This document shows, in pieces, positions 6,718 through 46,844 of a stretch of 64,000 nt of DNA. The stretch comes from a virus (taxonomy: Duplodnaviria; Heunggongvirae; Uroviricota; Caudoviricetes): the IMG/VR virus record IMGVR_UViG_3300042382_000594. One strand, 5' to 3'. The translations under genes and the position numbers were made by a program. How positions within the stretch are numbered: position 1 is the stretch's first letter; each line of letters begins with the position of its first letter. The notes below the pieces were generated by a model that was given only the letters and a program-made list of their open reading frames with translations, was not told the DNA's origin and did no database searches.

Positions 6718-6908
6718 TTTCCAAAAGTCTCCAAATATAAACTTTCTAATTCCGGTCTATCTTCGGGAATATATTTTACCTGATATTTATCCCATCTAAA
6801 CCAAATGCCACTAACTCTCATGTATTCTAGACCATCAATAAGGAATTTCGTATTTCCATCTTCGCTAGCATTAATTTTTTCTATTTTAGTTGTCATATTT
6901 TCTTCCAA
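6714..6908 (-). CDS. hypothetical protein
   Basis: ORF track. 64 aa. Start overlaps the stop of the primase gene. Confidence 0.25.
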   Translation of the reverse strand: MEENMTTKIEKINASEDGNTKFLIDGLEYMRVSGIWFRWDKYQVKYIPEDRPELESLYLETFGK

Positions 6909-7894
6909 TTTAAGTATTCCAGTTCAGCTCGTAACCCAGAGAAGGTGTTATTACTTATTATAACTAATAATTCCTCCTGCGTCAAGCCATTTTTTATTGC
7001 ATCATTAATATCCTTAACTCCAAATGATTCTGGTAATAAACAAACAGAGAACCCATTCTTAATAAACTTCCCGATATTTTTAACGATATTCGCGTTTCTA
7101 GGCTCGCAGTCAGGGATTAGTATCAACTTACTCTTATCAAACACATTAGCTGCAGCGGCCAAATTTGAGTCTGCAGTTGCGATCGCGTTTGGTAGGAATA
7201 AAGAATCGAATGGACCTTCTACAACATAAATCAGCTTCATTGGATCAACTTTATCCAGCCCAAAAATCTTTTCTTGTTCCCTGTCAATCTTTACTGTTAT
7301 ATATCTCATGGAATAACTATCAAGAGCTCTTCCCTGAAATGCAACTAAATCACCAGATCTAGAATAAAATGGAATGATTACCCTTGGACCAGTTTGATCA
7401 AGTTTTTTATCAGAAACGGATTCAACAAAAGCTTTAAAATCATCAGTAAAAAATAGATATTTAAGATATTTTTCTGGTATTTTGCGATCTAAGATATACT
7501 TTTTAGCAATATGACTATCATCTAAATCAGCAATAGTAGGTAAATCTATTTTTTTATCTTGAATTTTAAATTTTGGAATTGCAGGTTTATCAATAGAATT
7601 ATTTTTCTTTCCAGTAAATTTTTCCTGGAAATTTTCCATGATATATTCTTGTTCTAGGTGAGGATCTAGATAACCAAGCAAAGATCTAAGAGTTGTTCCT
7701 TTATCGCAATTAAAACACGTGTAGAAATAATTATCGTTTTTTGCATAAACGAATCCACGAGTTTTTGATTTCATTTTTTGAGAGTCGCCGCAATATGGGC
7801 AACGCATGGTATATAGGTTGGTATTCTTTTGTTTAAAGAGTTCCAACTTAGGTGATAACATTAAAATGTATTTTCTATCTATCCAAATGCTCAT
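6893..7894 (-). CDS. 61: DNA primase (T4 gp61-like)
   Basis: N-terminal zinc ribbon (CPYCGDS...CFNC) and Toprim-like VEGPFDSLF segment. 333 aa versus T4 gp61 342 aa. Confidence 0.75.
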   Translation of the reverse strand: MSIWIDRKYILMLSPKLELFKQKNTNLYTMRCPYCGDSQKMKSKTRGFVYAKNDNYFYTCFNCDKGTTLRSLLGYLDPHLEQEYIMENFQEKFTGKKNNSIDKPAIPKFKIQDKKIDLPTIADLDDSHIAKKYILDRKIPEKYLKYLFFTDDFKAFVESVSDKKLDQTGPRVIIPFYSRSGDLVAFQGRALDSYSMRYITVKIDREQEKIFGLDKVDPMKLIYVVEGPFDSLFLPNAIATADSNLAAAANVFDKSKLILIPDCEPRNANIVKNIGKFIKNGFSVCLLPESFGVKDINDAIKNGLTQEELLVIISNNTFSGLRAELEYLNWKKI

Positions 7895-7897
7895 TAT

Positions 7898-7924
7898 AAA
7901 AAAGCCTGAAGTTTATATTCAGGC
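7898..7924 (-). terminator. rho-independent terminator (minus strand)
   Basis: Hairpin gcctgaa-gtttatat-ttcaggc, followed on the minus strand by a T6 run. Lies between ORF 7959..8417 and the primase gene. Confidence 0.5.
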
Positions 7925-7958
7925 TTATTATACTACGAAAAGATAAAAAAGTAAAGCA

Positions 7959-8417
7959 TTATTTTATTACAAATAATTTTTTGAGCATATCAATATTTGA
8001 AAATATCCATAAAACAACTACACCGCCGCCCCACAATAACCATTTGTATTGTAATAGGTCTACAGTTTTGGCTTCATTTTTATCAACTCTATCAGTTAAA
8101 GTTTTATTCATAGAATTAATTTCCTCTGTTAATAACTTCTCAATAGCATTAATTCTACTTGAAATATTTTTCTCAGAGTCTTCTAATATTTTATATAAAT
8201 CTTCTAATTCATCTTTAGTATTAAGAAGGTTATATTCTATTTTCGTAGTTTTATCTAATACTGCTGCATGTTGAGTATCGATTTTATCAATTACGTCTTC
8301 GATTCTACTAAAAAGCCTATTAATAAATCCGACTTCTTGTTTTAAGACTGCAACTTCAACTTTTAATTCCGATAACGTTTCGACTTTTACATCATGCAAC
8401 GTTGAATTATCTGCCAT
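7959..8417 (-). CDS. coiled-coil protein with C-terminal transmembrane anchor
   Basis: Heptad-rich N-terminus and a hydrophobic C-terminal segment (WLLWGGGVVVLWIF). Confidence 0.3.
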   Translation of the reverse strand: MADNSTLHDVKVETLSELKVEVAVLKQEVGFINRLFSRIEDVIDKIDTQHAAVLDKTTKIEYNLLNTKDELEDLYKILEDSEKNISSRINAIEKLLTEEINSMNKTLTDRVDKNEAKTVDLLQYKWLLWGGGVVVLWIFSNIDMLKKLFVIK

Positions 8418-32780: not shown

Positions 32781-32854
32781 TGGAGCGGGATAAGGGAATC
32801 GAACCCTCACTAGGAGATTGGAAATCTGCTGTTCTACCATTAAACTAATCCCGC
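32781..32854 (-). tRNA. tRNA-Gly (anticodon UCC)
   Basis: Manual fold. Acceptor gcgggat/atcccgc, D-arm gttt/gaac, anticodon loop tttccaa, T-arm gaggg-ttcgatt-ccctt, CCA encoded. One C-C mismatch in the anticodon stem. Confidence 0.6.
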
Positions 32855-32860
32855 AATATT

Positions 32861-32937
32861 TGGTGCCCCTCCTAGGACTTGAACCTAGAACCAACCGATT
32901 ATGAGTCGGACGCTCTAACCATTTGAGCTAAAGGGGC
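32861..32937 (-). tRNA. tRNA-Met or Ile2 (anticodon CAU)
   Basis: Manual fold. Anticodon loop ctcataa, T-arm ctagg-ttcaagt-cctag, CCA encoded. Confidence 0.6.
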
Positions 32938-32982
32938 AAATTACATTACTATTATATAACGTAAACGTGTATTAGTCAAGAA

Positions 32983-33165
32983 TTATTTTTTCTGAACTTT
33001 TTTAAAGAAATTATCTAATTTTTTATCGCACTGTTTATTTGAATTTGTTAAAGATTCGACCTTTGCAGTTAAAGCAGCATGATCATCTTGTAACTTAGCT
33101 AAATCGCCTGAACTAGCGCAACCTGTTACAAATAAACATAAACTAACTAAAAATAAAGTTTTCAT
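32983..33165 (-). CDS. Lpp-like coiled-coil lipoprotein
   Basis: Signal peptide with lipobox LFVTGC followed by a helical SSGDLAKLQDDHAALTAKVESLTN region, like Braun lipoprotein. Embedded in the tRNA array. Confidence 0.45.
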   Translation of the reverse strand: MKTLFLVSLCLFVTGCASSGDLAKLQDDHAALTAKVESLTNSNKQCDKKLDNFFKKVQKK

Positions 33166-33187
33166 AACTTTCTCTTATTAAATTAAT

Positions 33188-33264
33188 TGGCGGGCAGGGA
33201 AAGACTCGAACTCTCATCTTTGTGTTTTGGAGGCACATGTTTTATCCAATTAAACTACCTACCC
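33188..33264 (-). tRNA. tRNA-Trp (anticodon CCA)
   Basis: Manual fold. Acceptor gggtagg/cctgccc, anticodon loop ctccaaa, T-arm gagag-ttcgagt-ctttc, CCA encoded. C-A mismatch at the base of the anticodon stem. Confidence 0.5.
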
Positions 33265-33269
33265 AGTAT

Positions 33270-33344
33270 TGGCGTCGCTACGGGGAATCGAACCCCGCTT
33301 ACAAGAATGAAAATCTTGTGTCCTAACCGATAGACGATAGCGAC
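33270..33344 (-). tRNA. tRNA-Glu (anticodon UUC)
   Basis: Manual fold. Acceptor gtcgcta/tagcgac, anticodon stem caaga/tcttg with loop ttttcat, T-arm cgggg-ttcgatt-ccccg, CCA encoded. Confidence 0.55.
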
Positions 33345-33368
33345 AATTATTTTTTAAACCCATTAGGG

Positions 33369-33441
33369 GTGACTAGTGGGACTTGAACCCACAAAATCTC
33401 GAATCACAATCGAGGACGTCTACCAATTCCGTCATAGTCAC
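33369..33441 (-). tRNA. tRNA-His (anticodon GUG)
   Basis: Manual fold. Anticodon stem ctcga/tcgag with loop ttgtgat, T-arm gtggg-ttcaagt-cccac, discriminator C, CCA not encoded. Confidence 0.55.
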
Positions 33442-33458
33442 ACCTAATGGGTCTTATT

Positions 33459-33535
33459 TGGCTCCCAGAGTAAGAATCGAACTTACCTGATAAACTGATT
33501 AACAGTCAGCTGGCACACCTTGCGCCCATCTGGGA
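33459..33535 (-). tRNA. tRNA-Asn (anticodon GUU)
   Basis: Manual fold. Acceptor tcccaga/tctggga, anticodon stem gctga/tcagt with loop ctgttaa, T-arm gtaag-ttcgatt-cttac, CCA encoded. Variable region is unusually long (7 nt). Confidence 0.5.
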
Positions 33536-33543
33536 TTTATCTT

Positions 33544-34167
33544 TTAATTATTTACAATTACATCTAATATTTTTAACTCTAATTCTTGTAGAGTTCCATT
33601 ATTGTCAATTATATAGTCAATATGAGGATTTCCATACCAATCGTATTCAGATTTATGTATATTTTGCGATGCTGCATAAGCATCAAATACAGATTTATCT
33701 AACGAATCAAGATAACCGTACCAGTTAGGTCGTGTTTCTTTTCTATCAATTTGAATAAATACAGCTCCAATAGATTTTAAGAAACTAATCTCGTTTTTAA
33801 ATCTAACATCAGTAATAACTACATTATCATACTGTTGAATTTTTCGCTCAAGAGAATCAACCCAAATTCCATCAAGTAAATTTTCTCTACAAACTTCTGT
33901 ACCAAAATACTGTAGTATATATCTAGGTGTTATAGGTTTATTAAATTTAACCGACCAAAAAGTATCAACAGTTTCACGAAAAACTCTAGATTCTTCGGTG
34001 TCACCTTCTAATAAAGCTCTATCCCAACCAAAAATAGAAGATACTGCATCTTTTAATGAGCCAGCAAAAGATAGAGCAGTAAAATTATTTTCTACTAAAA
34101 TATCGCCAGCAGTTCCTTTTCCAGAACCAATAAAACCAAGTAACCCAATAATCATAATATAACCCAA
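33544..34167 (-). CDS. 1: deoxynucleoside monophosphate kinase (T4 gp1-like)
   Basis: P-loop GFIGSGKGT. VVITDVRFKNEISFLKSIGAVFIQIDR and the C-terminal IDNNGTLQELELKI resemble T4 gp1 (IVPDTRQDHE...GATVIHVVRP, ITNDGSLEELFSKI). Confidence 0.6.
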   Translation of the reverse strand: MGYIMIIGLLGFIGSGKGTAGDILVENNFTALSFAGSLKDAVSSIFGWDRALLEGDTEESRVFRETVDTFWSVKFNKPITPRYILQYFGTEVCRENLLDGIWVDSLERKIQQYDNVVITDVRFKNEISFLKSIGAVFIQIDRKETRPNWYGYLDSLDKSVFDAYAASQNIHKSEYDWYGNPHIDYIIDNNGTLQELELKILDVIVNN

Positions 34168-34171
34168 AACG

Positions 34172-34993
34172 TCAAGAAAGTAAAGACAAATACTTATTCA
34201 TAATATTTGACAAATCTTGTTTTAATAATATTCTTCCATGATATTTAAAAGTATCTCGTAATTGCTCATAACTCTCAGCGTTTTCGGATAAATGTTCGTT
34301 AAACGTAACTAATAATTTTTCTTTAGTTAATCCAGTTGGACTATTATTATCAGTATGTTGACCGCCAGCCATAGAAAACCTATCGCTAAGAGGTACTCGC
34401 GTTTGAATCTGCAACTTTCTAGCTATAAATTCATCGGTCATAGGAGCAAAACCATAATTAAAAATAATAAATCTTGCTGTATTAATTAATCTCGGGTAAT
34501 GCCTGCCTTGGCTATATCTAACAGAATTAGAATGCATTAAACGAGAACCTCTGTGTTCTATAGTATTAGGAACATCTAAACCAACTTTAAGAACATCCCA
34601 TAAAGGAACGTCATACGACAACGTATTTGATCCCCTAAACTCTAATTCATCAACAAAATATAAACATGGAATATATAATTCTTCTTCTTTTGTCGAATTT
34701 AAACTAGCAAAATCGCCAATTAAAAATTCAGTGGTATTTAAACAAACTTTCCAATCAGTTATAGTTGCCTCAATATCCATCACTTCACGATCTACGTCAC
34801 TAGCACTAAAGTCTCGGTTTTTGCTGTTAACTATTTCCCAAGTAGGGCAAATGTGTTTAATAATTTCAACACTTTTATCTGTACTAGCATAATTAATCAA
34901 AATGCCATGATCAAAATATTTTTTATGGTGATTTAACCACCACGGAAGTAAATATTCTTCATTATAAAAATGCGAAATAATAGTTTTTTTCAT
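34172..34993 (-). CDS. putative GT-A glycosyltransferase (DUF23/GT92-like)
   Basis: N-terminal ISHFYNEEYLLPWWLNHH resembles the NE..L.EW..HH motif of GT92/DUF23 proteins. Confidence 0.3.
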   Translation of the reverse strand: MKKTIISHFYNEEYLLPWWLNHHKKYFDHGILINYASTDKSVEIIKHICPTWEIVNSKNRDFSASDVDREVMDIEATITDWKVCLNTTEFLIGDFASLNSTKEEELYIPCLYFVDELEFRGSNTLSYDVPLWDVLKVGLDVPNTIEHRGSRLMHSNSVRYSQGRHYPRLINTARFIIFNYGFAPMTDEFIARKLQIQTRVPLSDRFSMAGGQHTDNNSPTGLTKEKLLVTFNEHLSENAESYEQLRDTFKYHGRILLKQDLSNIMNKYLSLLS

Positions 34994-35008
34994 TTATCAC
35001 CTAAAAAT

Positions 35009-35075
35009 TGGACGCGAAAGGGTGGAATAGAACCGCAAGTTATGAGCCTAGCTATCTACCACTGATATACTTCGC
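35009..35075 (-). tRNA. degenerate tRNA-like element with CAU anticodon loop (possible pseudo-tRNA)
   Basis: Acceptor 6/7 bp, perfect D-arm tatc/gata, anticodon loop ctcataa. The anticodon stem is weak and no canonical T-arm could be folded. Confidence 0.25.
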
Positions 35076-35083
35076 ATAATATT

Positions 35084-35160
35084 TGGTCTCCCATGACAGA
35101 TTCGAACTGCCGACCTATCCGCCCCAAACGGATCGCTCTACCAGACTGAGCTAATGGGAG
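35084..35160 (-). tRNA. tRNA-Pro (anticodon UGG)
   Basis: Manual fold. Acceptor ctcccat/atgggag, anticodon stem atccg/cggat with loop tttgggg, T-arm ggcag-ttcgaat-ctgtc, CCA encoded. Confidence 0.65.
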
Positions 35161-35168
35161 TAATAATT

Positions 35169-35244
35169 TGGAGCCAAAGACAGGAATCGAACCCGCAACA
35201 TCTTCATTACAAGTGAAGCGCTCTACCTATTGAGCTACATTGGC
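35169..35244 (-). tRNA. tRNA-Thr (anticodon UGU)
   Basis: Manual fold. D-arm gctc/gagc, anticodon stem cttca/tgaag with loop cttgtaa, T-arm gcggg-ttcgatt-cctgt, CCA encoded. One U-U mismatch in the acceptor stem. Confidence 0.55.
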
Positions 35245-35366: not shown

Positions 35367-36161
35367 TTACAATTCGCCGAGATAATTTGCTACAGCTGGT
35401 AAATTACCTTGGAACTGATAACTTCCGACATGGACGCAATTAACCCATGGCGCCATCCAAACTTCAATTCCGATTTTTCTGCATTGTTGACAGAAATGAT
35501 AATCTTCGCTCAATACGCGATTTGATTCTTCGTCAATCTCAACATTAAAATATGAATGAATTTTTCTATCACCGCTGAAATGTTGCGTACCAACATGATC
35601 TGGCGTATATTCATATTGCGGAAACTCTTCTTTAAATTTAGATAGAACATCTTTACGAATCATCATCATACCAGTTCCAATCTCAAGAACTTGTAATGGT
35701 TCAGTAACATTAAACTGTTTAGTTCCAGCAACAGGATTAAATACAATATCTCCACCTAATCTCTCTAATTCTCCAGTCGAAATATTAGGATTTTTAATAA
35801 TTGCCTTTTTAATATTTTCCCATTTAATAGTTTTCTTGGGATAAGGAGCTCCAATAATATCTTTATCTAATACCAGCATTGCAATAACATCTACTGCACT
35901 AAATCCAATATCAGCATCAATAAACATCATATGAGTACAATCAGAACGTAAAAATTCATCAACTAAATAATTTCTTGCTCGCTGAATTAAACTTTCATTA
36001 AATAAGAACGAGAATTTAATTTCCAATCCATATTGCAATGCGGCCATTTGTAAGTCTAAACAAGACTTCATATAAGCACCAAGACAACTACCGCCATACA
36101 TTGGTGTAGCAACAAATAGTTTTTTGCCTTCTAGATTTTCTTTTGATAATTTAATTTCCAT
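35367..36161 (-). CDS. putative GT-A glycosyltransferase
   Basis: Rossmann-like N-terminus LFVATPMYGG and DxD-like FIDADIG. Confidence 0.3.
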   Translation of the reverse strand: MEIKLSKENLEGKKLFVATPMYGGSCLGAYMKSCLDLQMAALQYGLEIKFSFLFNESLIQRARNYLVDEFLRSDCTHMMFIDADIGFSAVDVIAMLVLDKDIIGAPYPKKTIKWENIKKAIIKNPNISTGELERLGGDIVFNPVAGTKQFNVTEPLQVLEIGTGMMMIRKDVLSKFKEEFPQYEYTPDHVGTQHFSGDRKIHSYFNVEIDEESNRVLSEDYHFCQQCRKIGIEVWMAPWVNCVHVGSYQFQGNLPAVANYLGEL

Positions 36162-36164
36162 AAT

Positions 36165-36473
36165 TTAAGTAGTCTCTTTTAAAATTTGTTCGTTAATTTT
36201 ATTTTGTATATCTTCTGGTATTGCGAATATCTTTTCGGTAATCTCGGAATTATATTTAGATGCAGCAGTTTCTCGTACCTTTTTAATTGCTTCGGCTTCT
36301 CTGGATGGAATTAAAGGAATTTTTGAAATATCCTCAGCATAATGAATTTTACACGAATATTCTTGAACTTCATTAAATGCTCGAATATCTTCTATAAAAT
36401 GCCTAAAATGTATTTTACTTAATTTCCAAATAGTAGAAATAGTTACACATGTACGACATTTACTTCTTGTCAT
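36165..36473 (-). CDS. hypothetical protein
   Basis: ORF track. 102 aa. Confidence 0.25.
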   Translation of the reverse strand: MTRSKCRTCVTISTIWKLSKIHFRHFIEDIRAFNEVQEYSCKIHYAEDISKIPLIPSREAEAIKKVRETAASKYNSEITEKIFAIPEDIQNKINEQILKETT

Positions 36474-37071
36474 TTTTACCTCTCTTTTTCGTGATTATGC
36501 GACTCTTTACGAATTTCTTAATTTTTTTATTTAGAGCAGTTTCAGCTCGTTCTAAAACAAATTTAGAAACTTTAGTTTTAAAATCAATTCCATTTAATCT
36601 ATCTATTCCTTGTTGAATAATTCTTGAAGTTAAACCATCGAACCTAGTCATCTTTTCATTTCCTTCAAAATCTTGATATGAAACAATAACTGTAGTAGGG
36701 CGTTTAACTACCATTAATAAACCCATATTACTCAAATCAGATTCTTCTAGTAAAATTTCGCCATGCGATTCAATAACAATAGGATTGAAAAATGCAACAA
36801 AATTATCTGCAACTCCAGCAACCAATACTTTATGCTCTAATCCGCATTGATTTGCAGCAATTCCATATACTTTATGAAATTTACATGTTGCAATTAACTT
36901 TGAAGCAATTTCGCTAGAATTTAATTCAGTATTGGTAAAATCGAAGTGTTTTAACTTTGTAGTTAAAACTGGATCTTTTTGATCACATAATTCATAACCA
37001 AGAAATTGAGGTTCAGGCACTGCTGCAGCCTGAGAAACTACATCAGCAGTATTATATATAAACTCACTCAT
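36460..37071 (-). CDS. peptide deformylase-like protein with substituted metal-ligand motifs
   Basis: Motif 1 is GIAANQCG (PDF GφGφAAxQ). The EGCLS position reads EESDLS and the HExxH position reads QQGIDRLNG. Carries a Lys-rich C-terminal tail. Confidence 0.55.
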   Translation of the reverse strand: MSEFIYNTADVVSQAAAVPEPQFLGYELCDQKDPVLTTKLKHFDFTNTELNSSEIASKLIATCKFHKVYGIAANQCGLEHKVLVAGVADNFVAFFNPIVIESHGEILLEESDLSNMGLLMVVKRPTTVIVSYQDFEGNEKMTRFDGLTSRIIQQGIDRLNGIDFKTKVSKFVLERAETALNKKIKKFVKSRIITKKRGKNDKK

Positions 37072-38789
37072 TGTATAACCTTCATCTTTGAAAAGTTTTT
37101 TATTTTTTCGAACTTTAATACAGTATCGAATTTATCTGATACTTGATCAGACTTATGACTAATAACAAATATATTTGTACTTTTATCAACTGATGATAAT
37201 AAATTCATAAAAACATCAGTACCCCCAGTATCAAGACTGCCGTCCATTATTTCGTCAAGAATTAATAAATTGGTATTTACTGAATTTTTTAATCTAGCTA
37301 ACTGTCTAAATGAAAATAAAATAGCTAAATCTAATCGAGTTTTTTCGCCCTCAGAGAAATTAGCATAAGTAAATTCATCTCTATGACGAGATTTAATTAC
37401 TTCTTCAAAATTTTCATTAATATTAAAATTAACAAAGAAATCTAATTGAGCCAAATACTGATTTATATATTTGTTTAAAATAGGAAGATACTGTTTAATT
37501 ATACGAGTTTTAATTCCTCCGTCCTTTAACATAACAGAAATAAAATCATAATAACTTTTTTCATTTATATATTCTTCATATTTTTCAACATAAACATCTA
37601 ATGATTCAATTAATTCTTGCAGTTTATCTGAACCATTATCAGTGGTATTTGATGAATCTTTTAGTTGATCAATTTCATTAGAAACTAGTTTTATATATTT
37701 TTGCGCAGAAACAATATTTGAATTTTTCTCTGATAAAATACTTGAATTCTTTAAAATTTTAGCGTTTATCTTGGATATAGCAACTAATCTATCAGTAGCA
37801 ACCTTTAATTCCTTAGATAATTTTTTTTCGCCATCAACTAATTCTATTAATTTAGTGCTATTTTTTTCAATAATTTCCTGTTTAAACGCAGAATTAATAG
37901 ATTGACGGCATGTTGGACAATTATCATTTGAATGATAGAATGTATTATCTTTTTCTACCTTAGATATATTATCGCGCAATTTACCTTCAATTAATAATAA
38001 TTTATTTTTCTTTTTTTCAACGACATCCATATCAGAAATTTCATGACCCAGTCGTTCGTTTTCAGACAATAACTCAGAGATAGTTTGCTGTAAATCTTCA
38101 ACTTCAACACAAGTATTTGCAATTAATTCTTTTTTTCTAAGAATTAGTTCATCAGAAACTTGATTGGTACGTTTAATATTTTGTTTTTGAAGTTCTATTT
38201 TGTCTTTAAATAATTCAATATTAAATTTACAATCTTGAACAGTTTCTTTAATTCCAGATACTTTATCTTTAACAATAGAGTTCATGTTAGAAAAAATCTG
38301 AATATCAAGCAAATCTTCAATAACAGAGCGTCTATCTCCAGCTGATAACTGCATAAAAGGAGTATATCTAGCTGAGCCAAGAATAACAACTTGAGTAAAA
38401 GATTTGTAACTCATTTTAAGTATATATCTTTCTAATTGTTCTTGATAATCTTTTACTTTTGCGTCTTGGCGAACTAAATCACCATTACAATAAACTTCAA
38501 AAATATTTGGTTTAATACCACGAATAATTTTATATTTGTTTGGACCAATAGAAAACTCAACTTCAGTAACCAATTCAGATTTATTAATTGAATTTATTAA
38601 ACCGCTTTTGTTAATTTTTCTAAAAGGTTTTCCATAAAGGGCAAAGGTAATTGCATCAATAAATGTTGATTTGCCTTGCCCATTAATTCCAGTGGATAAA
38701 GTAGTTCTATCTTTATTTAATTCAATTTCAGTAAAGTTATTTCCATAGGAAAGAAAGTTTTTAAACCGGATTGTTTCAAAAATTACCAT
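37068..38789 (-). CDS. 46: recombination endonuclease subunit gp46 (Rad50/SbcC-like)
   Basis: N-terminal Walker A GINGQGKST, long coiled coil with zinc-hook-like CPTC, C-terminal signature/Walker B LILDEIMD. Confidence 0.9.
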   Translation of the reverse strand: MVIFETIRFKNFLSYGNNFTEIELNKDRTTLSTGINGQGKSTFIDAITFALYGKPFRKINKSGLINSINKSELVTEVEFSIGPNKYKIIRGIKPNIFEVYCNGDLVRQDAKVKDYQEQLERYILKMSYKSFTQVVILGSARYTPFMQLSAGDRRSVIEDLLDIQIFSNMNSIVKDKVSGIKETVQDCKFNIELFKDKIELQKQNIKRTNQVSDELILRKKELIANTCVEVEDLQQTISELLSENERLGHEISDMDVVEKKKNKLLLIEGKLRDNISKVEKDNTFYHSNDNCPTCRQSINSAFKQEIIEKNSTKLIELVDGEKKLSKELKVATDRLVAISKINAKILKNSSILSEKNSNIVSAQKYIKLVSNEIDQLKDSSNTTDNGSDKLQELIESLDVYVEKYEEYINEKSYYDFISVMLKDGGIKTRIIKQYLPILNKYINQYLAQLDFFVNFNINENFEEVIKSRHRDEFTYANFSEGEKTRLDLAILFSFRQLARLKNSVNTNLLILDEIMDGSLDTGGTDVFMNLLSSVDKSTNIFVISHKSDQVSDKFDTVLKFEKIKNFSKMKVIQ

Positions 38790-39865
38790 TATTCAACCGC
38801 CATTGCTTCAGTATATAAATTAGACATCATAGTCTTCAATTTGTTTTTATCTAATTCTTGTTGATTAATACTATCAATATATTTGTAAGTAATTGTTAAT
38901 GTATCATCAGTTTCATCAACATCCTCATCAATTTCTAAATCAACTACATCTTCAGTAATTGATACATCTATAGGGTTATTCGCATAAACTTGATCGACAA
39001 ATAAATCAAACAAATATGGATTAGTTTTAGCCTTAACTTGAATCTTAACATATTTACCAATTACGTTAGATAAAAATTCTTTATCAAGATAACTGGAATT
39101 AGTGACATCACTAGATCCAGAATCATCATAATCCATCTTATAGAAAATTGAATTTGGATTAAGTACAGTTTCCAATTCCCTAGTTTCTAAGTCAAAAACT
39201 CTAAAACCTTTTGGATCGGCATAATCTTGCCAAGTCATCTCATAAGGAGTCCCTATGTACTCGATATTCCCTCTCTTAGACGCGTGATGATAATGACCGG
39301 ATAATACCCTTTCATAATTAGAAAACGCCTTAGCGGACAATCCATGCTCCGATAGGATACTACTTTGGTACATCTTAAAACCTTCTATTTCAAAATGACC
39401 AACACAAACAGTAGAAGTATCTTGTTTAATAAAATTTAAACATTCTTGATAATTTTCTTTACAAATCCATGGAATAATAGAAATTCCATTGTCAAGTTTA
39501 GTTGGTTCTTTTACAACAGTTACGTTTTTAAACTGAGTTAAAAATAATCCAGAACTACTAATACTCAATGATTCTTTATACGCTAAATCGTGGTTTCCAA
39601 GTAATGTTATTAATTTAATATCAAATTTATCGAACTTAGAAAAGAAATAATTATTAGCTTCAGATAATGTTATATGATTCGTGTATTTTCTTCTATCAAA
39701 TAAATCCCCTAATTGAATAACAGTGCTTATATTATTTTGTATAAGATAAGGAAAAAATACCTGATCATAAAATTTTTCAAAAAACTTATGAAAATACATA
39801 CTGTCGCCTCTTGCACCAAAATGACAATCACCAAGAAAAACTATTTTACTCATAACAAAATCCAA
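38789..39865 (-). CDS. 47: recombination endonuclease subunit gp47 (Mre11/SbcD-like)
   Basis: Calcineurin-like phosphoesterase motifs (VFLGDCHFG, GDLFD, GNHD, GHFE, GHYH). Confidence 0.9.
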   Translation of the reverse strand: MDFVMSKIVFLGDCHFGARGDSMYFHKFFEKFYDQVFFPYLIQNNISTVIQLGDLFDRRKYTNHITLSEANNYFFSKFDKFDIKLITLLGNHDLAYKESLSISSSGLFLTQFKNVTVVKEPTKLDNGISIIPWICKENYQECLNFIKQDTSTVCVGHFEIEGFKMYQSSILSEHGLSAKAFSNYERVLSGHYHHASKRGNIEYIGTPYEMTWQDYADPKGFRVFDLETRELETVLNPNSIFYKMDYDDSGSSDVTNSSYLDKEFLSNVIGKYVKIQVKAKTNPYLFDLFVDQVYANNPIDVSITEDVVDLEIDEDVDETDDTLTITYKYIDSINQQELDKNKLKTMMSNLYTEAMAVE

Positions 39866-39929: not shown

Positions 39930-40682
39930 GTGTTATCAAAGGAGACAACTATGTCCAGCACAAATACTTATACTGAACAAAAATACTGCGTTTATCATAT
40001 TACATACTCAGGCGATAAGTTATCACCAAAAAATAATTCAAATATAATCCCATCAAATTACATCGGTTCATCTACAATTGATAGTATTAAATCCGGTTAT
40101 ATGGGATCCATAAAATCAAAAATTTATAAAAATATTTGGAAATCAGAATTAAAAACTAATCCACATTTATTTTCTATTGAAATAATATCATATCACGAAA
40201 CTAGACCATCAGCTACCTACAAAGAATTACAAATACAAAAAATATTTAACGTTGTTAAGAATCCATTATTTGTTAACATGGCGTATGCTGCGCCAAATGG
40301 GTTTTTTGGTAGAGATGTTTCGAGAGAAAAACATCCAAATTATAATAAACCGCGAACAAATGATAGTAAAGAAAAAATATCAAAAAATCATGCAAACGTA
40401 TCAGGTAAAAATAATCCAATGTCTAACAAAATTAGAATTACTAATGGTATATTAAATTCTGCAGTAAAACATAAAAATGAAATACCTGATGGATGGTATA
40501 CAGGACTAACATTTAATACTCAACGGAAAAAAGAAACTAACCCCAGAAAAGCATATAAAAAAGAAAATAAAAATCGATCAACAAAAGGCATTAAACGTAA
40601 AAAATTTATTTGTATTATTGAAACCAAGAAAGAATACGATAAAGCAAAAGCAAAAATATATTTTCCTGAATTACCATATTAA
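39930..40682 (+). CDS. GIY-YIG homing-endonuclease-like protein, free-standing
   Basis: CVYHITYSG...NYIGSST (GIY...YIG) with a Lys/Arg-rich C-terminal half. Plus strand between gp47 and gp55. Confidence 0.55.
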   Translation: MLSKETTMSSTNTYTEQKYCVYHITYSGDKLSPKNNSNIIPSNYIGSSTIDSIKSGYMGSIKSKIYKNIWKSELKTNPHLFSIEIISYHETRPSATYKELQIQKIFNVVKNPLFVNMAYAAPNGFFGRDVSREKHPNYNKPRTNDSKEKISKNHANVSGKNNPMSNKIRITNGILNSAVKHKNEIPDGWYTGLTFNTQRKKETNPRKAYKKENKNRSTKGIKRKKFICIIETKKEYDKAKAKIYFPELPY

Positions 40683-44643: not shown

Positions 44644-46026
44644 ATGGTAAAAGTTGTAGTTTTAAAACCGGAAGAGGTAACTCCAAGACCCGATTTGGTT
44701 GGTAAATGGCTTAATGAAAGTCATTATAGAATATTAGTTGAAGAAGATTTAGATGTATATCTTCCTCCAGATTGCGCAGATTTTACTGCCGAAGAAAACT
44801 GTGATAACAATATGGAATGTAATTCTTGTCATAAAGGGTTATCTGAAAAGAATATTGTATTTAAGTTTCGTAAAAATTTCTTTAATAAAGAAGAGGCTGA
44901 TGCAGCTTACGCGGGTTTACGTGATGCAGCTGTTGAAACTCAAAATCGCGGTATGGCTGGTGGACCAAGAACTGCTACATGCGCAGGAAGAGAATGGGTT
45001 ACTGATGAACAATTTGATTTATTAGAATTCTTTGCACATAAAAATTCGACTTCAGTATTCGGCGGATATACGCCAAAGGCAGATGTTGATTTAATACGAG
45101 CCAAGTATAAAAATCTTAAATCTGATGATAGTCGTGGTGTCGTCTGGTTGACTGAGCAAATTAGAGCTGAGAAATTTGTATTTAATGACTTTATCGATAA
45201 ATTATGCGCATTAACTATTGATGAAGCAAAAGCTGAAGCTCAACGAGTATTAGATAAATTGATTAGTAAAACGACTTATGCTAATGTCGTAAATTCTGGT
45301 ATTGCTGGTTGGTATGATAGATATCCTAGAATTCCTTTTGGTAGACCAACTACCTATACAAGAGATAATCTAGAAAAGTTTTCTAAGTCTTATCCATTCT
45401 TACAATCTTTAGCTAAAGGTTTTAAGGATATGTTGCCATGGCGTTATGGTAATCAAAAACGAGCTGCAGAATCAATTGATCAAAGATTTGTTGTACCAGA
45501 TACTCCATTTACGACAATTACAGTAAATAAAAACTTTCGAACCGCTGGCCATTACGATCCAGCTAATATGGAAGATGGATTCGCTAATCTTTGTGTTATG
45601 TCAAATAATGATCAATATGAAGGATGTTATTTAGTATTTCCGGAAATTGGTTATGCAGTTGATGTCAGACCTACTGATTTATTATTAGTAAATAATCAAG
45701 CTGGATTACATGGTAATACTGAATTAAAACTAAAAGATCCAGATGCAGAAAGAATTAGTATGATTGCGTTTTTCCATGAAGGTATGTTAACGCTTGGTAC
45801 TTATGATTACGAGAATACTCGCAGAGAATTTATTGATAGTCGTAGATTAAATCCCGATCATCCAGACCAAAGATACCGTTGGAATGGCATCACTCCTGGA
45901 TTATGGGAATCTGATGAGTGGATTGATTATTTGTTAGCTCAACCGCAAGGCAAAGGTTGGTTAGAATCCTATCACAAAGATTTGTATGACCGTAGATTCG
46001 GTAACAGTTTAGATAACTTTTTTTAA
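44644..46026 (+). CDS. 2-oxoglutarate/Fe(II)-dependent oxygenase with long N-terminal extension
   Basis: HYD (HxD), then LHGNT about 60 aa later, then ERIS (RxS): the classic 2OG-Fe(II)-oxygenase facial triad plus 2OG-binding Arg. Strong AGGAGA RBS. Confidence 0.55.
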   Translation: MVKVVVLKPEEVTPRPDLVGKWLNESHYRILVEEDLDVYLPPDCADFTAEENCDNNMECNSCHKGLSEKNIVFKFRKNFFNKEEADAAYAGLRDAAVETQNRGMAGGPRTATCAGREWVTDEQFDLLEFFAHKNSTSVFGGYTPKADVDLIRAKYKNLKSDDSRGVVWLTEQIRAEKFVFNDFIDKLCALTIDEAKAEAQRVLDKLISKTTYANVVNSGIAGWYDRYPRIPFGRPTTYTRDNLEKFSKSYPFLQSLAKGFKDMLPWRYGNQKRAAESIDQRFVVPDTPFTTITVNKNFRTAGHYDPANMEDGFANLCVMSNNDQYEGCYLVFPEIGYAVDVRPTDLLLVNNQAGLHGNTELKLKDPDAERISMIAFFHEGMLTLGTYDYENTRREFIDSRRLNPDHPDQRYRWNGITPGLWESDEWIDYLLAQPQGKGWLESYHKDLYDRRFGNSLDNFF

Positions 46027-46034
46027 GGTAGATT

Positions 46035-46844
46035 ATGAAATTGAATATTGCAATTCCTTCGTATAAACGATCTGATACGCTTAGAGATAAAACTTTAAGT
46101 GTATTGGAGAAATATAATGTAGATCCAAGTACAGTAACAATCTTTGTTGCTAATGATGCCGAAAAGACTGCATACGAAACATCATTAAAAGATAACATTT
46201 ATAACAAAAATATTGTTGTGGGTGTTGTTGGTATGGGACCAATTAGAAACTTTATTAGAAATTATTATGATGAGGGGGAATTTGTTGTAAATTTTGATGA
46301 TGATTTATCGAGTATTATGCGCAAAGCTCCTGCTGATGAAAAGAAAATGGAGCCAATTGAAGATATCCATAAAGAAGTATTTGAGCCAATGTATAATATT
46401 ATGCAGGAGAACGAAAATAAGCTCTGTGGTGTCTATGCAGCGTCGAATGCGTTTTTTATGAGTTATACCCCTAAGACTGGTTTATATTACTGCATTGGGT
46501 CGCTGTGGGGCTGCATTAACGATAAACATCAAGATCGTATGGTTCAATTATGCGATAAAGAAGATTTTGAGCGAACTCTTCAACATTATGTTCTTGATGG
46601 TTCAGTTTCGCGATTAGACAATATTACTGTTATATCCAAATATTATACTGAAGATGGAGGAATGCAAGTTGAACGAACTCTTGAACGTATTGATAAAAGT
46701 GCTGACGATTTAGTTCGTAGATTTCCAGATTTATGTACAAAATACGTCCGTGAAACTACAGGTCACGCTGAATTACGCTTACGGGATACTAGTGGAGGTA
46801 AATATCAAAAATCCACTTCTTTTGGTTTAGATAGTTTTTTCTAA
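46035..46844 (+). CDS. GT-A fold glycosyltransferase
   Basis: N-terminal IAIPSYKRSD and DxD-like NFDDDL. Start lies 9 nt after the oxygenase stop. Confidence 0.5.
   Translation: MKLNIAIPSYKRSDTLRDKTLSVLEKYNVDPSTVTIFVANDAEKTAYETSLKDNIYNKNIVVGVVGMGPIRNFIRNYYDEGEFVVNFDDDLSSIMRKAPADEKKMEPIEDIHKEVFEPMYNIMQENENKLCGVYAASNAFFMSYTPKTGLYYCIGSLWGCINDKHQDRMVQLCDKEDFERTLQHYVLDGSVSRLDNITVISKYYTEDGGMQVERTLERIDKSADDLVRRFPDLCTKYVRETTGHAELRLRDTSGGKYQKSTSFGLDSFF

What the first reader, a model, noticed from the sequence alone, without database searches (positions are those of the whole stretch)
36460..37071. Peptide-deformylase-fold protein lacking all three metal ligands
The ORF retains PDF motif 1 (GIAANQCG) and overall length. 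At the positions of motif 2 (EGCLS) and motif 3 (HEXXH) it reads EESDLS and QQGIDRLNG. The Cys and both His that bind the catalytic metal are therefore replaced, and a Lys-rich C-terminal tail is appended.

Phage PDFs are known from marine cyanophages and are catalytically active. A copy that keeps the fold but not the catalytic site suggests a non-enzymatic role, such as binding the ribosome exit tunnel or nascent chains. Alternatively my motif alignment is offset.
Basis: partly seen in the sequence, partly recalled or inferred. Interest (0 to 1): 0.55.

Follow-up and report, generated by a model that had tools for sequence, protein, structure and literature searches.

The report
Catalytically dead phage peptide deformylase
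A T4-like phage carries, in the slot where its relatives keep an active peptide deformylase, a well-conserved copy that has lost every catalytic residue but kept the helix that bacterial deformylases use to dock on the ribosome, so a gene counted as a metabolic enzyme probably works without catalysis.

Summary
The ORF at 36460-37071 (-) encodes a 203-aa protein with a clear peptide deformylase (PDF) fold. It matches Pfam PF01327 at E 2.9e-22, and its AlphaFold model superposes on E. coli PDF with a TM-score of 0.85. The metal ligand Cys is Asp112, the two His ligands are Gln154 and Arg158, and the catalytic Glu is Gly155. No His or Cys occurs after residue 103, so no alignment shift can restore the site.

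This is not decay. About 55 sequence clusters share the D-Q-x-R pattern. All come from uncultured T4-like phages of about 30% GC, and dN/dS is 0.1-0.3. The gene always follows gp47-gp46 (the Mre11/Rad50-like recombination nuclease). Canonical EGCLS/HExxH PDFs occupy that slot in related phages, so it looks like the positional ortholog of an active enzyme. Other lineages appear to have lost the ligands separately in the same slot.

The basic C-terminal helix, which is the ribosome anchor in E. coli PDF, is kept and is relatively better conserved than in the active relatives.

Best reading: a non-catalytic PDF pseudoenzyme that probably docks at the ribosomal tunnel exit. The docking is inferred, not shown. 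Databases and papers still call it "peptide deformylase".

The parts
36460..37071 (-). PDF-like coding sequence, 203 aa plus stop codon
   Evidence: ORF list. Pfam PF01327 at E 2.9e-22. AF2 model with pLDDT 86.7. Foldseek top hits are E. coli PDF with TM 0.85.
36991..37071 (-). N-terminal extension, residues 1-27. Confidence is low in the model, but the MSEFIYNT motif is conserved (Tyr6 and Thr8 at 98%).
   Evidence: pLDDT 53-54. Conservation. A similar hydrophobic-(N/D)-T motif occurs in the nearest canonical relatives P0056, P0058, P0066 and P0068.
36841..36870 (-). Motif 1, residues 68-77, VYGIAANQCG. Gln75 (E. coli Gln50) and Ala-Ala are kept. The first Gly (E. coli Gly43) is Val, and Ile44 is Tyr.
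   Evidence: Alignments.
36730..36747 (-). Degenerate motif 2, residues 109-114, EESDLS in place of EGCLS. Asp112 (36736-36738) sits at the Cys90 metal-ligand position.
   Evidence: Asp is present in 56 of 56 family sequences and Cys in 123 of 123 canonical relatives.
36589..36615 (-). Degenerate motif 3, residues 153-161, QQGIDRLNG in place of QHExDHLxG. Gln154 (36610-36612), Gly155 (36607-36609) and Arg158 (36598-36600) replace His132, Glu133 and His136.
   Evidence: In the family, position 154 is Q in 53 and H in 3. Position 155 is variable (N, G, C, A, S). Position 158 is R in 54 of 56.
36502..36564 (-). Basic amphipathic C-terminal helix, residues 170-190. It is equivalent to the E. coli PDF ribosome-anchoring helix (residues 147-168). 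Arg175, Lys182 and Lys185 are (near-)invariant.
   Evidence: Model helix H170-200. Alignment to E. coli Def. Conservation and net charge of +10. Role of the helix in E. coli: bioRxiv 10.1101/312850.
36463..36501 (-). Variable C-terminal tail, residues 191-203. It is Lys-rich only in the closest relatives.
37068..37071 (-). ATGA overlap: the start codon of the PDF-like gene overlaps the stop codon of gp46. An AAGG Shine-Dalgarno-like sequence lies at 37079-37082, inside the end of gp46. This suggests translational coupling.
   Evidence: Sequence read directly. The same 4-nt overlap occurs in L001 and L059.
37068..38789 (-). gp46-like Rad50/SbcC ATPase, the conserved upstream neighbour
   Evidence: Pfam SMC_N and AAA_23. 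Synteny across all related loci.
38789..39865 (-). gp47-like Mre11/SbcD nuclease, first gene of the conserved gp47-gp46-PDF block
   Evidence: Pfam Metallophos. Synteny.
36165..36473 (-). Downstream 102-aa ORF that overlaps the PDF-like 3' end by 14 nt. No family match. It lies in a variable slot.
   Evidence: Found only in the closest relatives; dTDP-sugar genes occupy this slot in L001.

Best explanation
The gene encodes a pseudoenzyme derived from a phage peptide deformylase.

Shown:
- It keeps the complete type-1B PDF fold.
- It has lost the Cys and both His ligands and the catalytic Glu, so it cannot be a metal-dependent deformylase.
- The ligand-less D112/Q154/R158 state is fixed and under purifying selection in a clade of low-GC T4-like phages.
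- It sits in the gp47-gp46-PDF slot, where related phages carry a canonical PDF.

Inferred, step 1: Asp112, Gln154 and Arg158 converge on the former metal position. They probably form a salt-bridge and hydrogen-bond cluster that replaces the metal structurally.

Inferred, step 2: the protein still docks beside the ribosomal tunnel exit, in the uL22/uL32 and 23S H24/H47 groove. It would do so through its conserved basic C-terminal helix, as E. coli PDF does. There it would act without catalysis. It could occupy the site shared by host PDF and MetAP and so alter N-terminal processing of nascent chains. Or it could serve as a passive exit-site factor during infection.

Sub-confidences: not a metallo-deformylase, about 0.93. 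Functional and selected, about 0.9. Ribosome docking as the retained activity, about 0.4.
For: Fold and lost ligands. There is no His or Cys after residue 103 and none is conserved in the family.

Family-wide fixation: 46 homologs at 38-95% identity all carry Asp112 and Arg158. The nine best 50%-identity representatives among 1.84 billion proteins also carry Asp112, seven of them with Arg158 (Thr or Ile in two). Canonical CHEH proteins come next.

Selection: dN/dS is 0.10-0.29.

Pattern of constraint: the positions conserved only for catalysis (Gly89, Glu133, Gly43, Pro94) have become variable. The fold core (Glu88, Arg102, Gln50, Asn74-Pro75, Asp135, Gly139) stays invariant.

Orthology: gp47-gp46-PDF synteny holds in all 18 pseudo loci and in most of the 28 canonical loci. 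Among cultured phages, Melnitz and Mosig carry canonical PDFs just downstream of gp46, and DLP_6 carries one about 4.5 kb downstream.

C-terminal helix:
- It aligns with the E. coli ribosome-anchor helix.
- Arg175 is at 98% against 31% in canonical relatives. Lys183 is at 88% against 26%. Lys185 is at 100%.
- Net charge of the C-terminal region is +10 against +7.7.
- Its information content equals the protein mean in the pseudo clade but is below the mean in canonical relatives.

Separate degenerate forms (P0063, P0170, P0061, P0190, P0192) sit in the same slot where context is available and keep basic C-terminal helices. This points to a non-catalytic function that already existed in the active ancestor.

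Ribosome binding is the only known non-catalytic activity of PDFs.
Against:
- A highly basic helix could equally bind DNA or another RNA.
- The gene is translationally coupled to a recombination nuclease, not to translation genes.
- The cleft is remodelled (Tyr/Phe at Ile44, Val/Ile at Gly43, variable residue at Gly89), so nascent-chain binding in the canonical mode is doubtful.
- Two divergent members lack Arg158 (P0052 has Thr, P0054 has Ile), so the salt-bridge idea is not universal.
- The protein evolves 1.7-2.1 times faster than gp46, against 1.0-1.4 times for active relatives. Constraint is therefore relaxed.
- A second, active PDF elsewhere in the genome cannot be excluded beyond the 64-kb window.
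Confidence: 0.45

Rival explanations
1. It is an accessory factor of the gp46/gp47 (Rad50/Mre11-like) recombination nuclease or of DNA metabolism. The basic C-terminal helix would bind DNA, and the PDF core would act only as a scaffold.
For: The start codon overlaps the gp46 stop codon (ATGA), and the gp47-gp46-PDF block is conserved in every related locus. The published description is 'inside a DNA metabolism operon' (PMC7029224). The C-terminal region carries a net charge of +10.
Against: Canonical, presumably active PDFs occupy the same slot in related phages. Position is therefore inherited and does not indicate a DNA function. No DNA-binding domain was detected. The conserved basic positions coincide with those of the E. 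coli ribosome-anchor helix.
Confidence: 0.13
2. It is a ligand 'reader' that works off the ribosome. The remodelled cleft (Asp112, Arg158, Gln154, Tyr69, Asn115) would bind an N-terminal peptide, free or formylated Met, or a small molecule without turning it over. It could shield or sequester particular N-termini.
For: The former active-site region is the most conserved part of the protein, at 3.2-3.7 bits per column. It carries family-specific invariant residues: Asp112, Asn115, Tyr/Phe69 and Arg158. Gln75 (the oxyanion Gln50) and Leu113 are kept.
Against: These motifs also form the fold core around the former metal site, so their conservation may be structural. Gly43, Ile44 and Gly89, which shape the peptide-binding crevice, are replaced by bulkier residues that may fill it. 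No ligand can be named.
Confidence: 0.12
3. It is still a hydrolase that uses a different, metal-independent or differently liganded chemistry, for example with Asp112 and Glu110 as acid and base.
For: Asp112 and Glu110 are invariant, and Gln75 is retained. Some type 3 PDFs with motif substitutions are reported to be active (PMC12690207).
Against: All three ligands are gone. Arg does not coordinate metals. The general-base position 155 varies freely (N, G, C, A, S, I, T). Glu110 is the structural partner of Arg124 in all PDFs. The protein scores 66 bits against the TIGR00079 equivalog cut-off of 104.
Confidence: 0.07
4. It is a decaying relic: a dead gene with no function that has not yet been deleted.
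For: It evolves about twice as fast as gp46, faster than active relatives do. The cultured pelagiphage HTVC008M lacks any PDF homolog, so the gene is dispensable for some T4-like phages.
Against: The ORF is intact in all 55+ clusters down to 38% identity. dN/dS is 0.1-0.3, there are 20 invariant columns, and the substituting residues themselves are fixed rather than random. Phage genomes purge useless DNA quickly.
Confidence: 0.03

Closest known systems
Canonical PDFs of Cyano-T4-type phages near or next to gp46 (Stenotrophomonas phage DLP_6 AMQ65985, Methylophilales phage Melnitz QZI94945, Pelagibacter phage Mosig QOI68987, and IMG/VR loci L027-L054)
   Same: They are the closest sequence relatives, at 28-41% identity. 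They share the unusual 'AANQ(C)G' motif 1, the FDF motif before helix 1 and a basic C-terminal helix. Most sit in the same genomic position, downstream of gp47-gp46.
   Different: They keep EGCL(S/T) and QHExDH. The window protein has D/Q/G/R at the four catalytic positions, bulkier residues at Gly43, Ile44 and Gly89, and a longer, better conserved C-terminal helix.
E. coli peptide deformylase (Def, type 1B; PDB 1ICJ, 1LRU, 1BS5)
   Same: Same fold over the whole chain, including the C-terminal helix (TM 0.85-0.88, 161-167 aligned columns). The structural residues Glu88, Arg102, Gln50, Asp135 and Gly139 are conserved. The basic helix positions R153, K160 and R163 align with R175, K182 and K185.
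   Different: 22-25% identity. Cys90, His132, Glu133 and His136 are all replaced. The window protein has a 27-residue N-terminal extension and a 13-residue C-terminal tail.
Characterised viral PDFs: cyanophage S-SSM7 PDF (PDB 3UWA) and Vibrio phage Vp16 PDF (PDB 5MTC)
   Same: Phage-encoded PDF-fold proteins. Both are detected by sequence, at E 1e-7 and 7e-5.
   Different: They are the mirror image of this protein. [quoted passage not shown] This protein keeps the helix and lacks the catalytic site.
Inactive 'type 3' accessory PDFs of Staphylococcus aureus and Streptococcus pneumoniae (Margolis 2000/2001, as cited in PMC12690207)
   Same: PDF homologs with substitutions in the catalytic motifs that are inactive under the conditions tested. 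They set the precedent for PDF pseudoenzymes.
   Different: Those are bacterial paralogs that sit alongside an essential active PDF, and they belong to a different PDF type. Here the protein is phage-encoded, arose from a type-1B-like phage PDF, occupies the ortholog's slot, and shows complete replacement of ligands by a fixed D/Q/R set. Phylogenetic membership in type 3 was not tested.

Membership tests
Peptide deformylase, active enzyme (EC 3.5.1.88) | PDF fold / Pfam PF01327 domain | tested here: met
   79.4 bits against a cut-off of 22.8. Foldseek TM 0.85 to E. coli PDF.
Peptide deformylase, active enzyme (EC 3.5.1.88) | Motif I (hydrophobic-G-hydrophobic-A-A-x-Q), including the oxyanion Gln50 | tested here: met
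   Y69-G-I-A-A-N-Q75 fits the revised motif of PMC12690207. The preceding Gly43 of the classical motif is Val, and 17 of 56 family members lack Gly at position 70.
Peptide deformylase, active enzyme (EC 3.5.1.88) | Motif II, EGCLS, with the Cys90 metal ligand | tested here: not met
   The sequence is EESDLS. Asp112 sits at the Cys position in 56 of 56 family sequences.
Peptide deformylase, active enzyme (EC 3.5.1.88) | Motif III, HExxH, with His132 and His136 as ligands and Glu133 as catalytic base | tested here: not met
   The sequence is Q154-G-I-D-R158. There is no His or Cys anywhere after residue 103.
Peptide deformylase, active enzyme (EC 3.5.1.88) | NCBIfam TIGR00079 equivalog score at or above its cut-off | tested here: not met
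   66.1 bits against a cut-off of 103.95. E. coli Def scores 220.7.
Peptide deformylase, active enzyme (EC 3.5.1.88) | Deformylase activity and bound Fe/Ni/Zn | not testable with these tools
   Needs an enzyme assay, ICP-MS, or complementation of a def conditional mutant.
Type 1B PDF architecture (ribosome-docking form) | C-terminal alpha-helix after the 3-10 helix that follows motif III | tested here: met
   The model has helix 170-200. The alignment covers E. coli residues up to 168.
Type 1B PDF architecture (ribosome-docking form) | Binding to the 50S subunit at uL22/uL32 through that helix | not testable with these tools
   Only indirect evidence: the conserved basic positions align with E. 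coli R153, K160 and R163.
Characterised viral PDFs (cyanophage S-SSM7, Vp16, 'type 4') | Intact catalytic motifs combined with a truncated C-terminus | tested here: not met
   Both features are inverted here.
Inactive accessory ('type 3'-like) PDFs | Substitutions of crucial motif residues | tested here: met
   All four catalytic residues are substituted.
Inactive accessory ('type 3'-like) PDFs | Coexistence with an active PDF paralog in the same genome | tested here: inconclusive
   There is no second PDF in the 64-kb window by six-frame HMM search. The rest of the phage genome was not available. The host presumably supplies Def.
Inactive accessory ('type 3'-like) PDFs | Phylogenetic placement within type 3 | not tested
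   The nearest relatives are canonical phage PDFs with a type-1B-like helix, so membership seems unlikely. No type 3 references were included.

The most novel reading that the evidence does not exclude
The PDF gene next to gp46 in Cyano-T4-type phages is maintained mainly for a non-catalytic activity at the ribosomal tunnel exit. That activity would be occupying or remodelling the site shared by host PDF and MetAP, so as to reprogram co-translational N-terminal processing during infection. Catalysis would be dispensable and has been lost several times. The D-Q-x-R clade would then be the first phage-encoded pseudoenzyme that targets the ribosome exit site. A 'core auxiliary metabolic gene' of abundant aquatic phages would not be a metabolic enzyme at all.
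Probability: 0.3. Interest if true: 0.75.

Novelty: new variant of a known kind. Interest (0 to 1): 0.55.

Why it matters
PDF is one of the most often cited viral auxiliary metabolic genes. It is counted as an enzyme in marine virome surveys. PMC7029224 calls it a core gene of pelagimyophages, and PMC9599517 uses it as a reference AMG.

This work shows that a whole clade of these 'PDFs' cannot be deformylases. The clade spans about 55 clusters at 90% identity and at least 9 at 50%, and every public annotation seen for it reads 'peptide deformylase'. Functional inferences from those annotations therefore need correcting.

Biologically, the clade is a natural separation-of-function allele. Catalysis is removed while the ribosome-anchoring helix is retained and tightened. 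This is the opposite of the characterised viral PDFs.

Loss of the ligands appears to have happened more than once in the same genomic slot. That suggests PDFs have a selectable non-catalytic role. The protein gives a direct handle for testing what PDF occupancy of the tunnel exit does by itself.

Tried and rejected
Three independent alignments agree, the fold match is clear, and no His or Cys occurs after residue 103.
- Second canonical PDF in the window: none found by six-frame HMM or phmmer search. Walking along IMG/VR contigs to cover more of the genome failed. The one contig recovered (L061) overlaps the window instead of extending it.
- Cultured pelagimyophage HTVC008M as a reference: it has no PDF-like ORF at all.
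- Near-identical DNA in GenBank phages: only a tRNA matched. The DNA polymerase is at most 45% identical to cyanomyovirus polymerases. The host therefore stays unassigned. The pelagimyophage label rests only on about 30% GC and on the published description.
- Translation-themed neighbours: there is no ribosomal protein S21 gene in the window. The tRNA-CAT at 32861-32937 is not an initiator tRNA, because G1-C72 is paired and the anticodon stem has no GGG/CCC.
- Literature: searches for a catalytically inactive or pseudoenzyme phage PDF found no such report in the held library.
- Strict monophyly of the family: when 10 motif columns are masked, bootstrap support is only modest, at 12 of 60. One other degenerate sequence, P0191, often joins the clade. 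The number of independent losses is therefore approximate.
- Measuring the Asp112-Arg158 distance: not possible, because model coordinates are not exposed.
Full report
**1. The observation**

The ORF at 36460-37071 on the minus strand is real. It starts with ATG and encodes 203 aa. It matches Pfam Pep_deformylase (PF01327) at 79.4 bits, E 2.9e-22, well above the 22.8-bit cut-off. It also matches PHROG 2890 'peptide deformylase'.

A phmmer search against PDB sequences aligns it with about 60 solved PDFs. In the best alignments, with P. falciparum 1RL4 and T. maritima 1LME, 'EGCLS' pairs with 'EESDLS' and 'QHEFDHLNG' pairs with 'QQGIDRLNG'. A MAFFT alignment that includes E. coli Def taken from NC_000913 gives the same register:

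| E. coli Def | Window protein |
|---|---|
| E88 | E110 |
| G89 | S111 |
| C90 | D112 |
| L91 | L113 |
| Q131 | Q153 |
| H132 | Q154 |
| E133 | G155 |
| D135 | D157 |
| H136 | R158 |
| G139 | G161 |
| Q50 | Q75 |

An AlphaFold2 model built on 47 family sequences has a mean pLDDT of 86.7. Its best Foldseek hits in the PDB are full-length E. coli PDF structures (1ICJ, 1LRU, 1XEN). They align over 161-167 columns with a target-normalised TM-score of 0.85-0.88, and the match includes the C-terminal helix.

There is also an argument that does not depend on any alignment. The protein has no His or Cys after residue 103, and no His or Cys column is conserved anywhere in the family.

**2. Not a one-off and not decay**

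The 5.8-billion-protein search returned 46 homologs of 191-225 aa at 38-95% identity. In their alignment E110, D112 and R158 are invariant, as are N74, Q75 and G77.

An exhaustive profile search of 1.84 billion 50%-identity representatives gave a clear ordering. The nine best-scoring representatives all carry Asp at the Cys position. Seven of them also carry Arg at the second His position, and two have Thr or Ile there. Canonical C/H/E/H proteins follow.

Eighteen IMG/VR loci carry the same form, E[S/T/L]D...QQx[I/V]DR. Pairwise Nei-Gojobori dN/dS within the family is 0.10-0.29.

The pattern of constraint is what one expects of a pseudoenzyme:
- Positions conserved in active relatives only for catalysis or substrate handling have become variable or changed. 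These are Gly43, Gly89, Pro94 and Glu133.
- The fold-core residues stay invariant. These are Glu88, Arg102, Gln50, Asn74-Pro75, Asp135 and Gly139.
- The replacing residues are themselves fixed. Asp112 is present in 56 of 56 sequences, Gln154 in 53 of 56 and Arg158 in 54 of 56.

Relative to the neighbouring gp46, the protein diverges 1.7-2.1 times as fast. Canonical relatives diverge 1.0-1.4 times as fast. Constraint is therefore relaxed but clearly present.

**3. Where it came from**

The window is part of an uncultured T4-like myovirus of about 30% GC.
- It encodes homologs of gp46, gp47, UvsW, UvsY, gp45, gp44 and a dNMP kinase.
- It has no near DNA match among GenBank phages.
- Its DNA polymerase is at most 45% identical to cyanomyovirus polymerases.

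The PDF-like start codon overlaps the gp46 stop codon (ATGA at 37068-37071). An AAGG Shine-Dalgarno-like sequence lies 7 nt upstream of the start.

The closest cultured homologs are the PDFs of Stenotrophomonas phage DLP_6, Methylophilales phage Melnitz and Pelagibacter phage Mosig. All three have canonical EGCL(S/T) and QHExDH motifs and a basic C-terminal helix. DLP_6 and Melnitz also share the unusual 'ANQ' in motif 1; Mosig reads ASQ there. In Melnitz and Mosig the PDF lies just downstream of gp46.

In IMG/VR, 28 further loci at 29-41% identity all encode canonical PDFs with 'AANQCG'. tblastn shows the gp47-gp46-PDF order both in the pseudo loci and in most of the canonical loci. The window protein therefore looks like the positional ortholog of an active phage enzyme, not a stray paralog. 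All pseudo-clade loci have 29-31% GC, whereas the canonical loci span 29-49%.

The deepest family members (P0045, P0046, P0051) read D-H-x-R. This suggests that His132 was the last ligand to go.

**4. Apparently repeated loss**

Among the best 150 representatives, about 14 further proteins have other degenerate ligand sets:

| Protein | Residues at C90 / H132 / E133 / H136 |
|---|---|
| P0063 | C Q G S |
| P0094 | S Q M I |
| P0061 | S Q N H |
| P0170 | D Q Q Y |
| P0190 | C Q A Y |
| P0192 | S Q S F |
| P0059 | N Q A S |
| P0191 | S H G I |

Others are listed. Most have canonical proteins as their nearest neighbours.

Where context could be retrieved, the degenerate genes also sit directly after gp46. 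This holds for P0063, P0170, P0061 and P0046. They all keep basic C-terminal helices.

A neighbour-joining tree recovers the D-Q-x-R family as a clade. With 10 motif columns masked, P0191 joins it and strict bootstrap support is modest, at 12 of 60. I therefore claim several separate losses without giving an exact number.

**5. What is kept**

The C-terminal helix spans residues 170-190 and is co-extensive with E. coli residues 147-168. It is amphipathic and strongly basic.
- Arg175, Lys182 and Lys185 align with E. coli R153, K160 and R163.
- They are 98-100% conserved in the pseudo clade. Arg175 is at 31% and Lys183 at 26% in canonical relatives, many of which end earlier.
- The information content of the helix equals the whole-protein mean in the pseudo clade (3.08 against 3.05 bits). 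It falls below the mean in canonical relatives (1.84 against 2.15).

In E. coli this helix is the ribosome anchor. It lies between uL22 and uL32 and in the groove formed by 23S helices H24 and H47 (bioRxiv 10.1101/312850; 10.1101/2022.04.20.488877; PMC12690207).

By contrast, the substrate crevice is remodelled. Gly43 is Val/Ile, Ile44 is Tyr/Phe, Gly89 is variable, and Phe/Tyr-Pro after motif 2 has become Asn-Met.

**6. Mechanism**

Shown: the protein cannot coordinate the catalytic metal and lacks the general base. It is nevertheless maintained by selection.

Inferred, step 1: in every PDF, the three side chains at the Cys90, His132 and His136 positions converge on one point. Asp112, Gln154 and Arg158 therefore most likely form a salt-bridge and hydrogen-bond cluster that replaces the metal structurally. 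I could not measure this, because model coordinates are not exposed. Two divergent members lack the Arg.

Inferred, step 2: the only known non-catalytic activity of PDFs is ribosome docking through the C-terminal helix. That helix is the element whose relative conservation rises when catalysis is lost. I therefore favour a ribosome exit-site role, with probability about 0.4. The protein could compete with host PDF and MetAP, or act as a passive exit-site factor.

Rivals, with their probabilities:
- A DNA- or recombination-associated role suggested by coupling to gp46 (0.13). This is weakened because active PDFs share the slot.
- A ligand or N-terminus 'reader' that uses the remodelled cleft (0.12).
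- Altered catalysis (0.07).
- A functionless relic (0.03).

**7. Comparison with what is known**

Characterised viral PDFs (cyanophage S-SSM7 and Vibrio phage Vp16) keep perfect catalytic motifs, are active, and lack the ribosome-binding C-terminus (PMC5591237). This family is the inverse.

Inactive accessory 'type 3' PDFs exist in S. aureus and S. pneumoniae. PDF pseudoenzymes are therefore not unprecedented. Those, however, are bacterial paralogs of another PDF type and have no assigned function.

As an active PDF, the window protein fails the defining motif II and motif III tests. It also fails the TIGR00079 equivalog cut-off, at 66 against 104 bits. It passes only the fold and domain test.

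Public sources name every family member seen 'peptide deformylase'. [quoted passage not shown] PMC9599517 uses PDF as a reference AMG. Searches of the held literature found no report of a ligand-less phage PDF.

**8. Verdict**

The non-enzymatic status is well supported, and the ribosome role is plausible but untested.
- I rate this a new variant of a known kind. It is a conserved PDF pseudoenzyme, apparently evolved more than once, in T4-like phages.
- Interest is moderate to good. It corrects a widespread annotation and offers a natural separation-of-function allele for studying PDF occupancy of the ribosome exit site.

**9. Limits**

- The host is unassigned. The pelagimyophage attribution rests on GC content and on the published description, and the cultured HTVC008M lacks the gene.
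- Only 64 kb of the genome was scanned for a second PDF.
- The phylogeny is neighbour-joining only.
- There is no biochemical evidence.

Noticed in passing
window 44644-46026 (+) and 46035-46844 (+): A Tet/JBP-type 2OG-Fe(II) dioxygenase (PF12851, E 1e-23) sits directly before a TET-associated glycosyltransferase (PF20691, E 8e-12). The pair probably hypermodifies DNA bases. A Tet_JBP gene also lies near the PDF-like gene in the related contig L001.
   Followed up: partly
window 32781-35244 (-): A cluster of eight tRNA genes (Gly-TCC, Met/Ile-CAT, Trp, Glu, His, Asn, Pro, Thr) lies between the clamp gene and the glycosyltransferases. The CAT tRNA at 32861-32937 is not an initiator, because G1-C72 is paired and the anticodon stem has no GGG/CCC. 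The tRNA-Thr is the only stretch with a near DNA match in GenBank phages (85% to Klebsiella phage tRNAs).
   Followed up: partly
window 39930-40682 (+): An opposite-strand 250-aa ORF with a weak NUMOD3 motif (20.2 bits) lies immediately beyond gp47. It is a probable homing endonuclease inserted in the replication and recombination module.
   Followed up: no
L001 8031-10004; L009, L015 and L017 about 6724-8403: In several close relatives gp46 is called as 657 aa with a faint intein-splicing hit. About 1.6 kb of extra sequence separates gp47 from the part of gp46 that aligns to the window protein. gp46 therefore seems invaded by an intein or a mobile element in those phages, but not in this window.
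   Followed up: no
window 36165-36473 (-) and the same slot in L001 10603-12884: The slot between the PDF-like gene and the conserved 264-aa glycosyltransferase-like gene (35367-36161, PHROG 1574) is variable. Here it holds a 102-aa ORF with no family match that overlaps the PDF-like gene by 14 nt. In L001 it holds three dTDP-sugar biosynthesis genes (epimerase/dehydratase, nucleotidyltransferase, sugar isomerase).
   Followed up: partly
L006-L008 (Pelagibacter phage HTVC008M, KC465899): Six-frame HMM and phmmer searches find no PDF-like ORF anywhere in HTVC008M. PMC7029224, however, states that PDF is core to all pelagimyophages. Downstream of its gp46 are unrelated hypothetical genes.
   Followed up: yes
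proteins P0059, P0061, P0063, P0094, P0106, P0123, P0154, P0157, P0170, P0190-P0192; loci L056-L060: About 14 of the best 150 cluster representatives are other phage-type PDFs with different degenerate ligand sets. Several were verified to lie directly after gp46, and all that were inspected keep basic C-terminal helices. This points to recurrent loss of catalysis in this gene slot.
   Followed up: partly
L058 1047-1961: In the contig that carries the degenerate PDF P0061, the next gene encodes an ADP-ribosyltransferase toxin-like protein (PF03496). It is reminiscent of the T4 Alt/Mod host-takeover enzymes.
   Followed up: no
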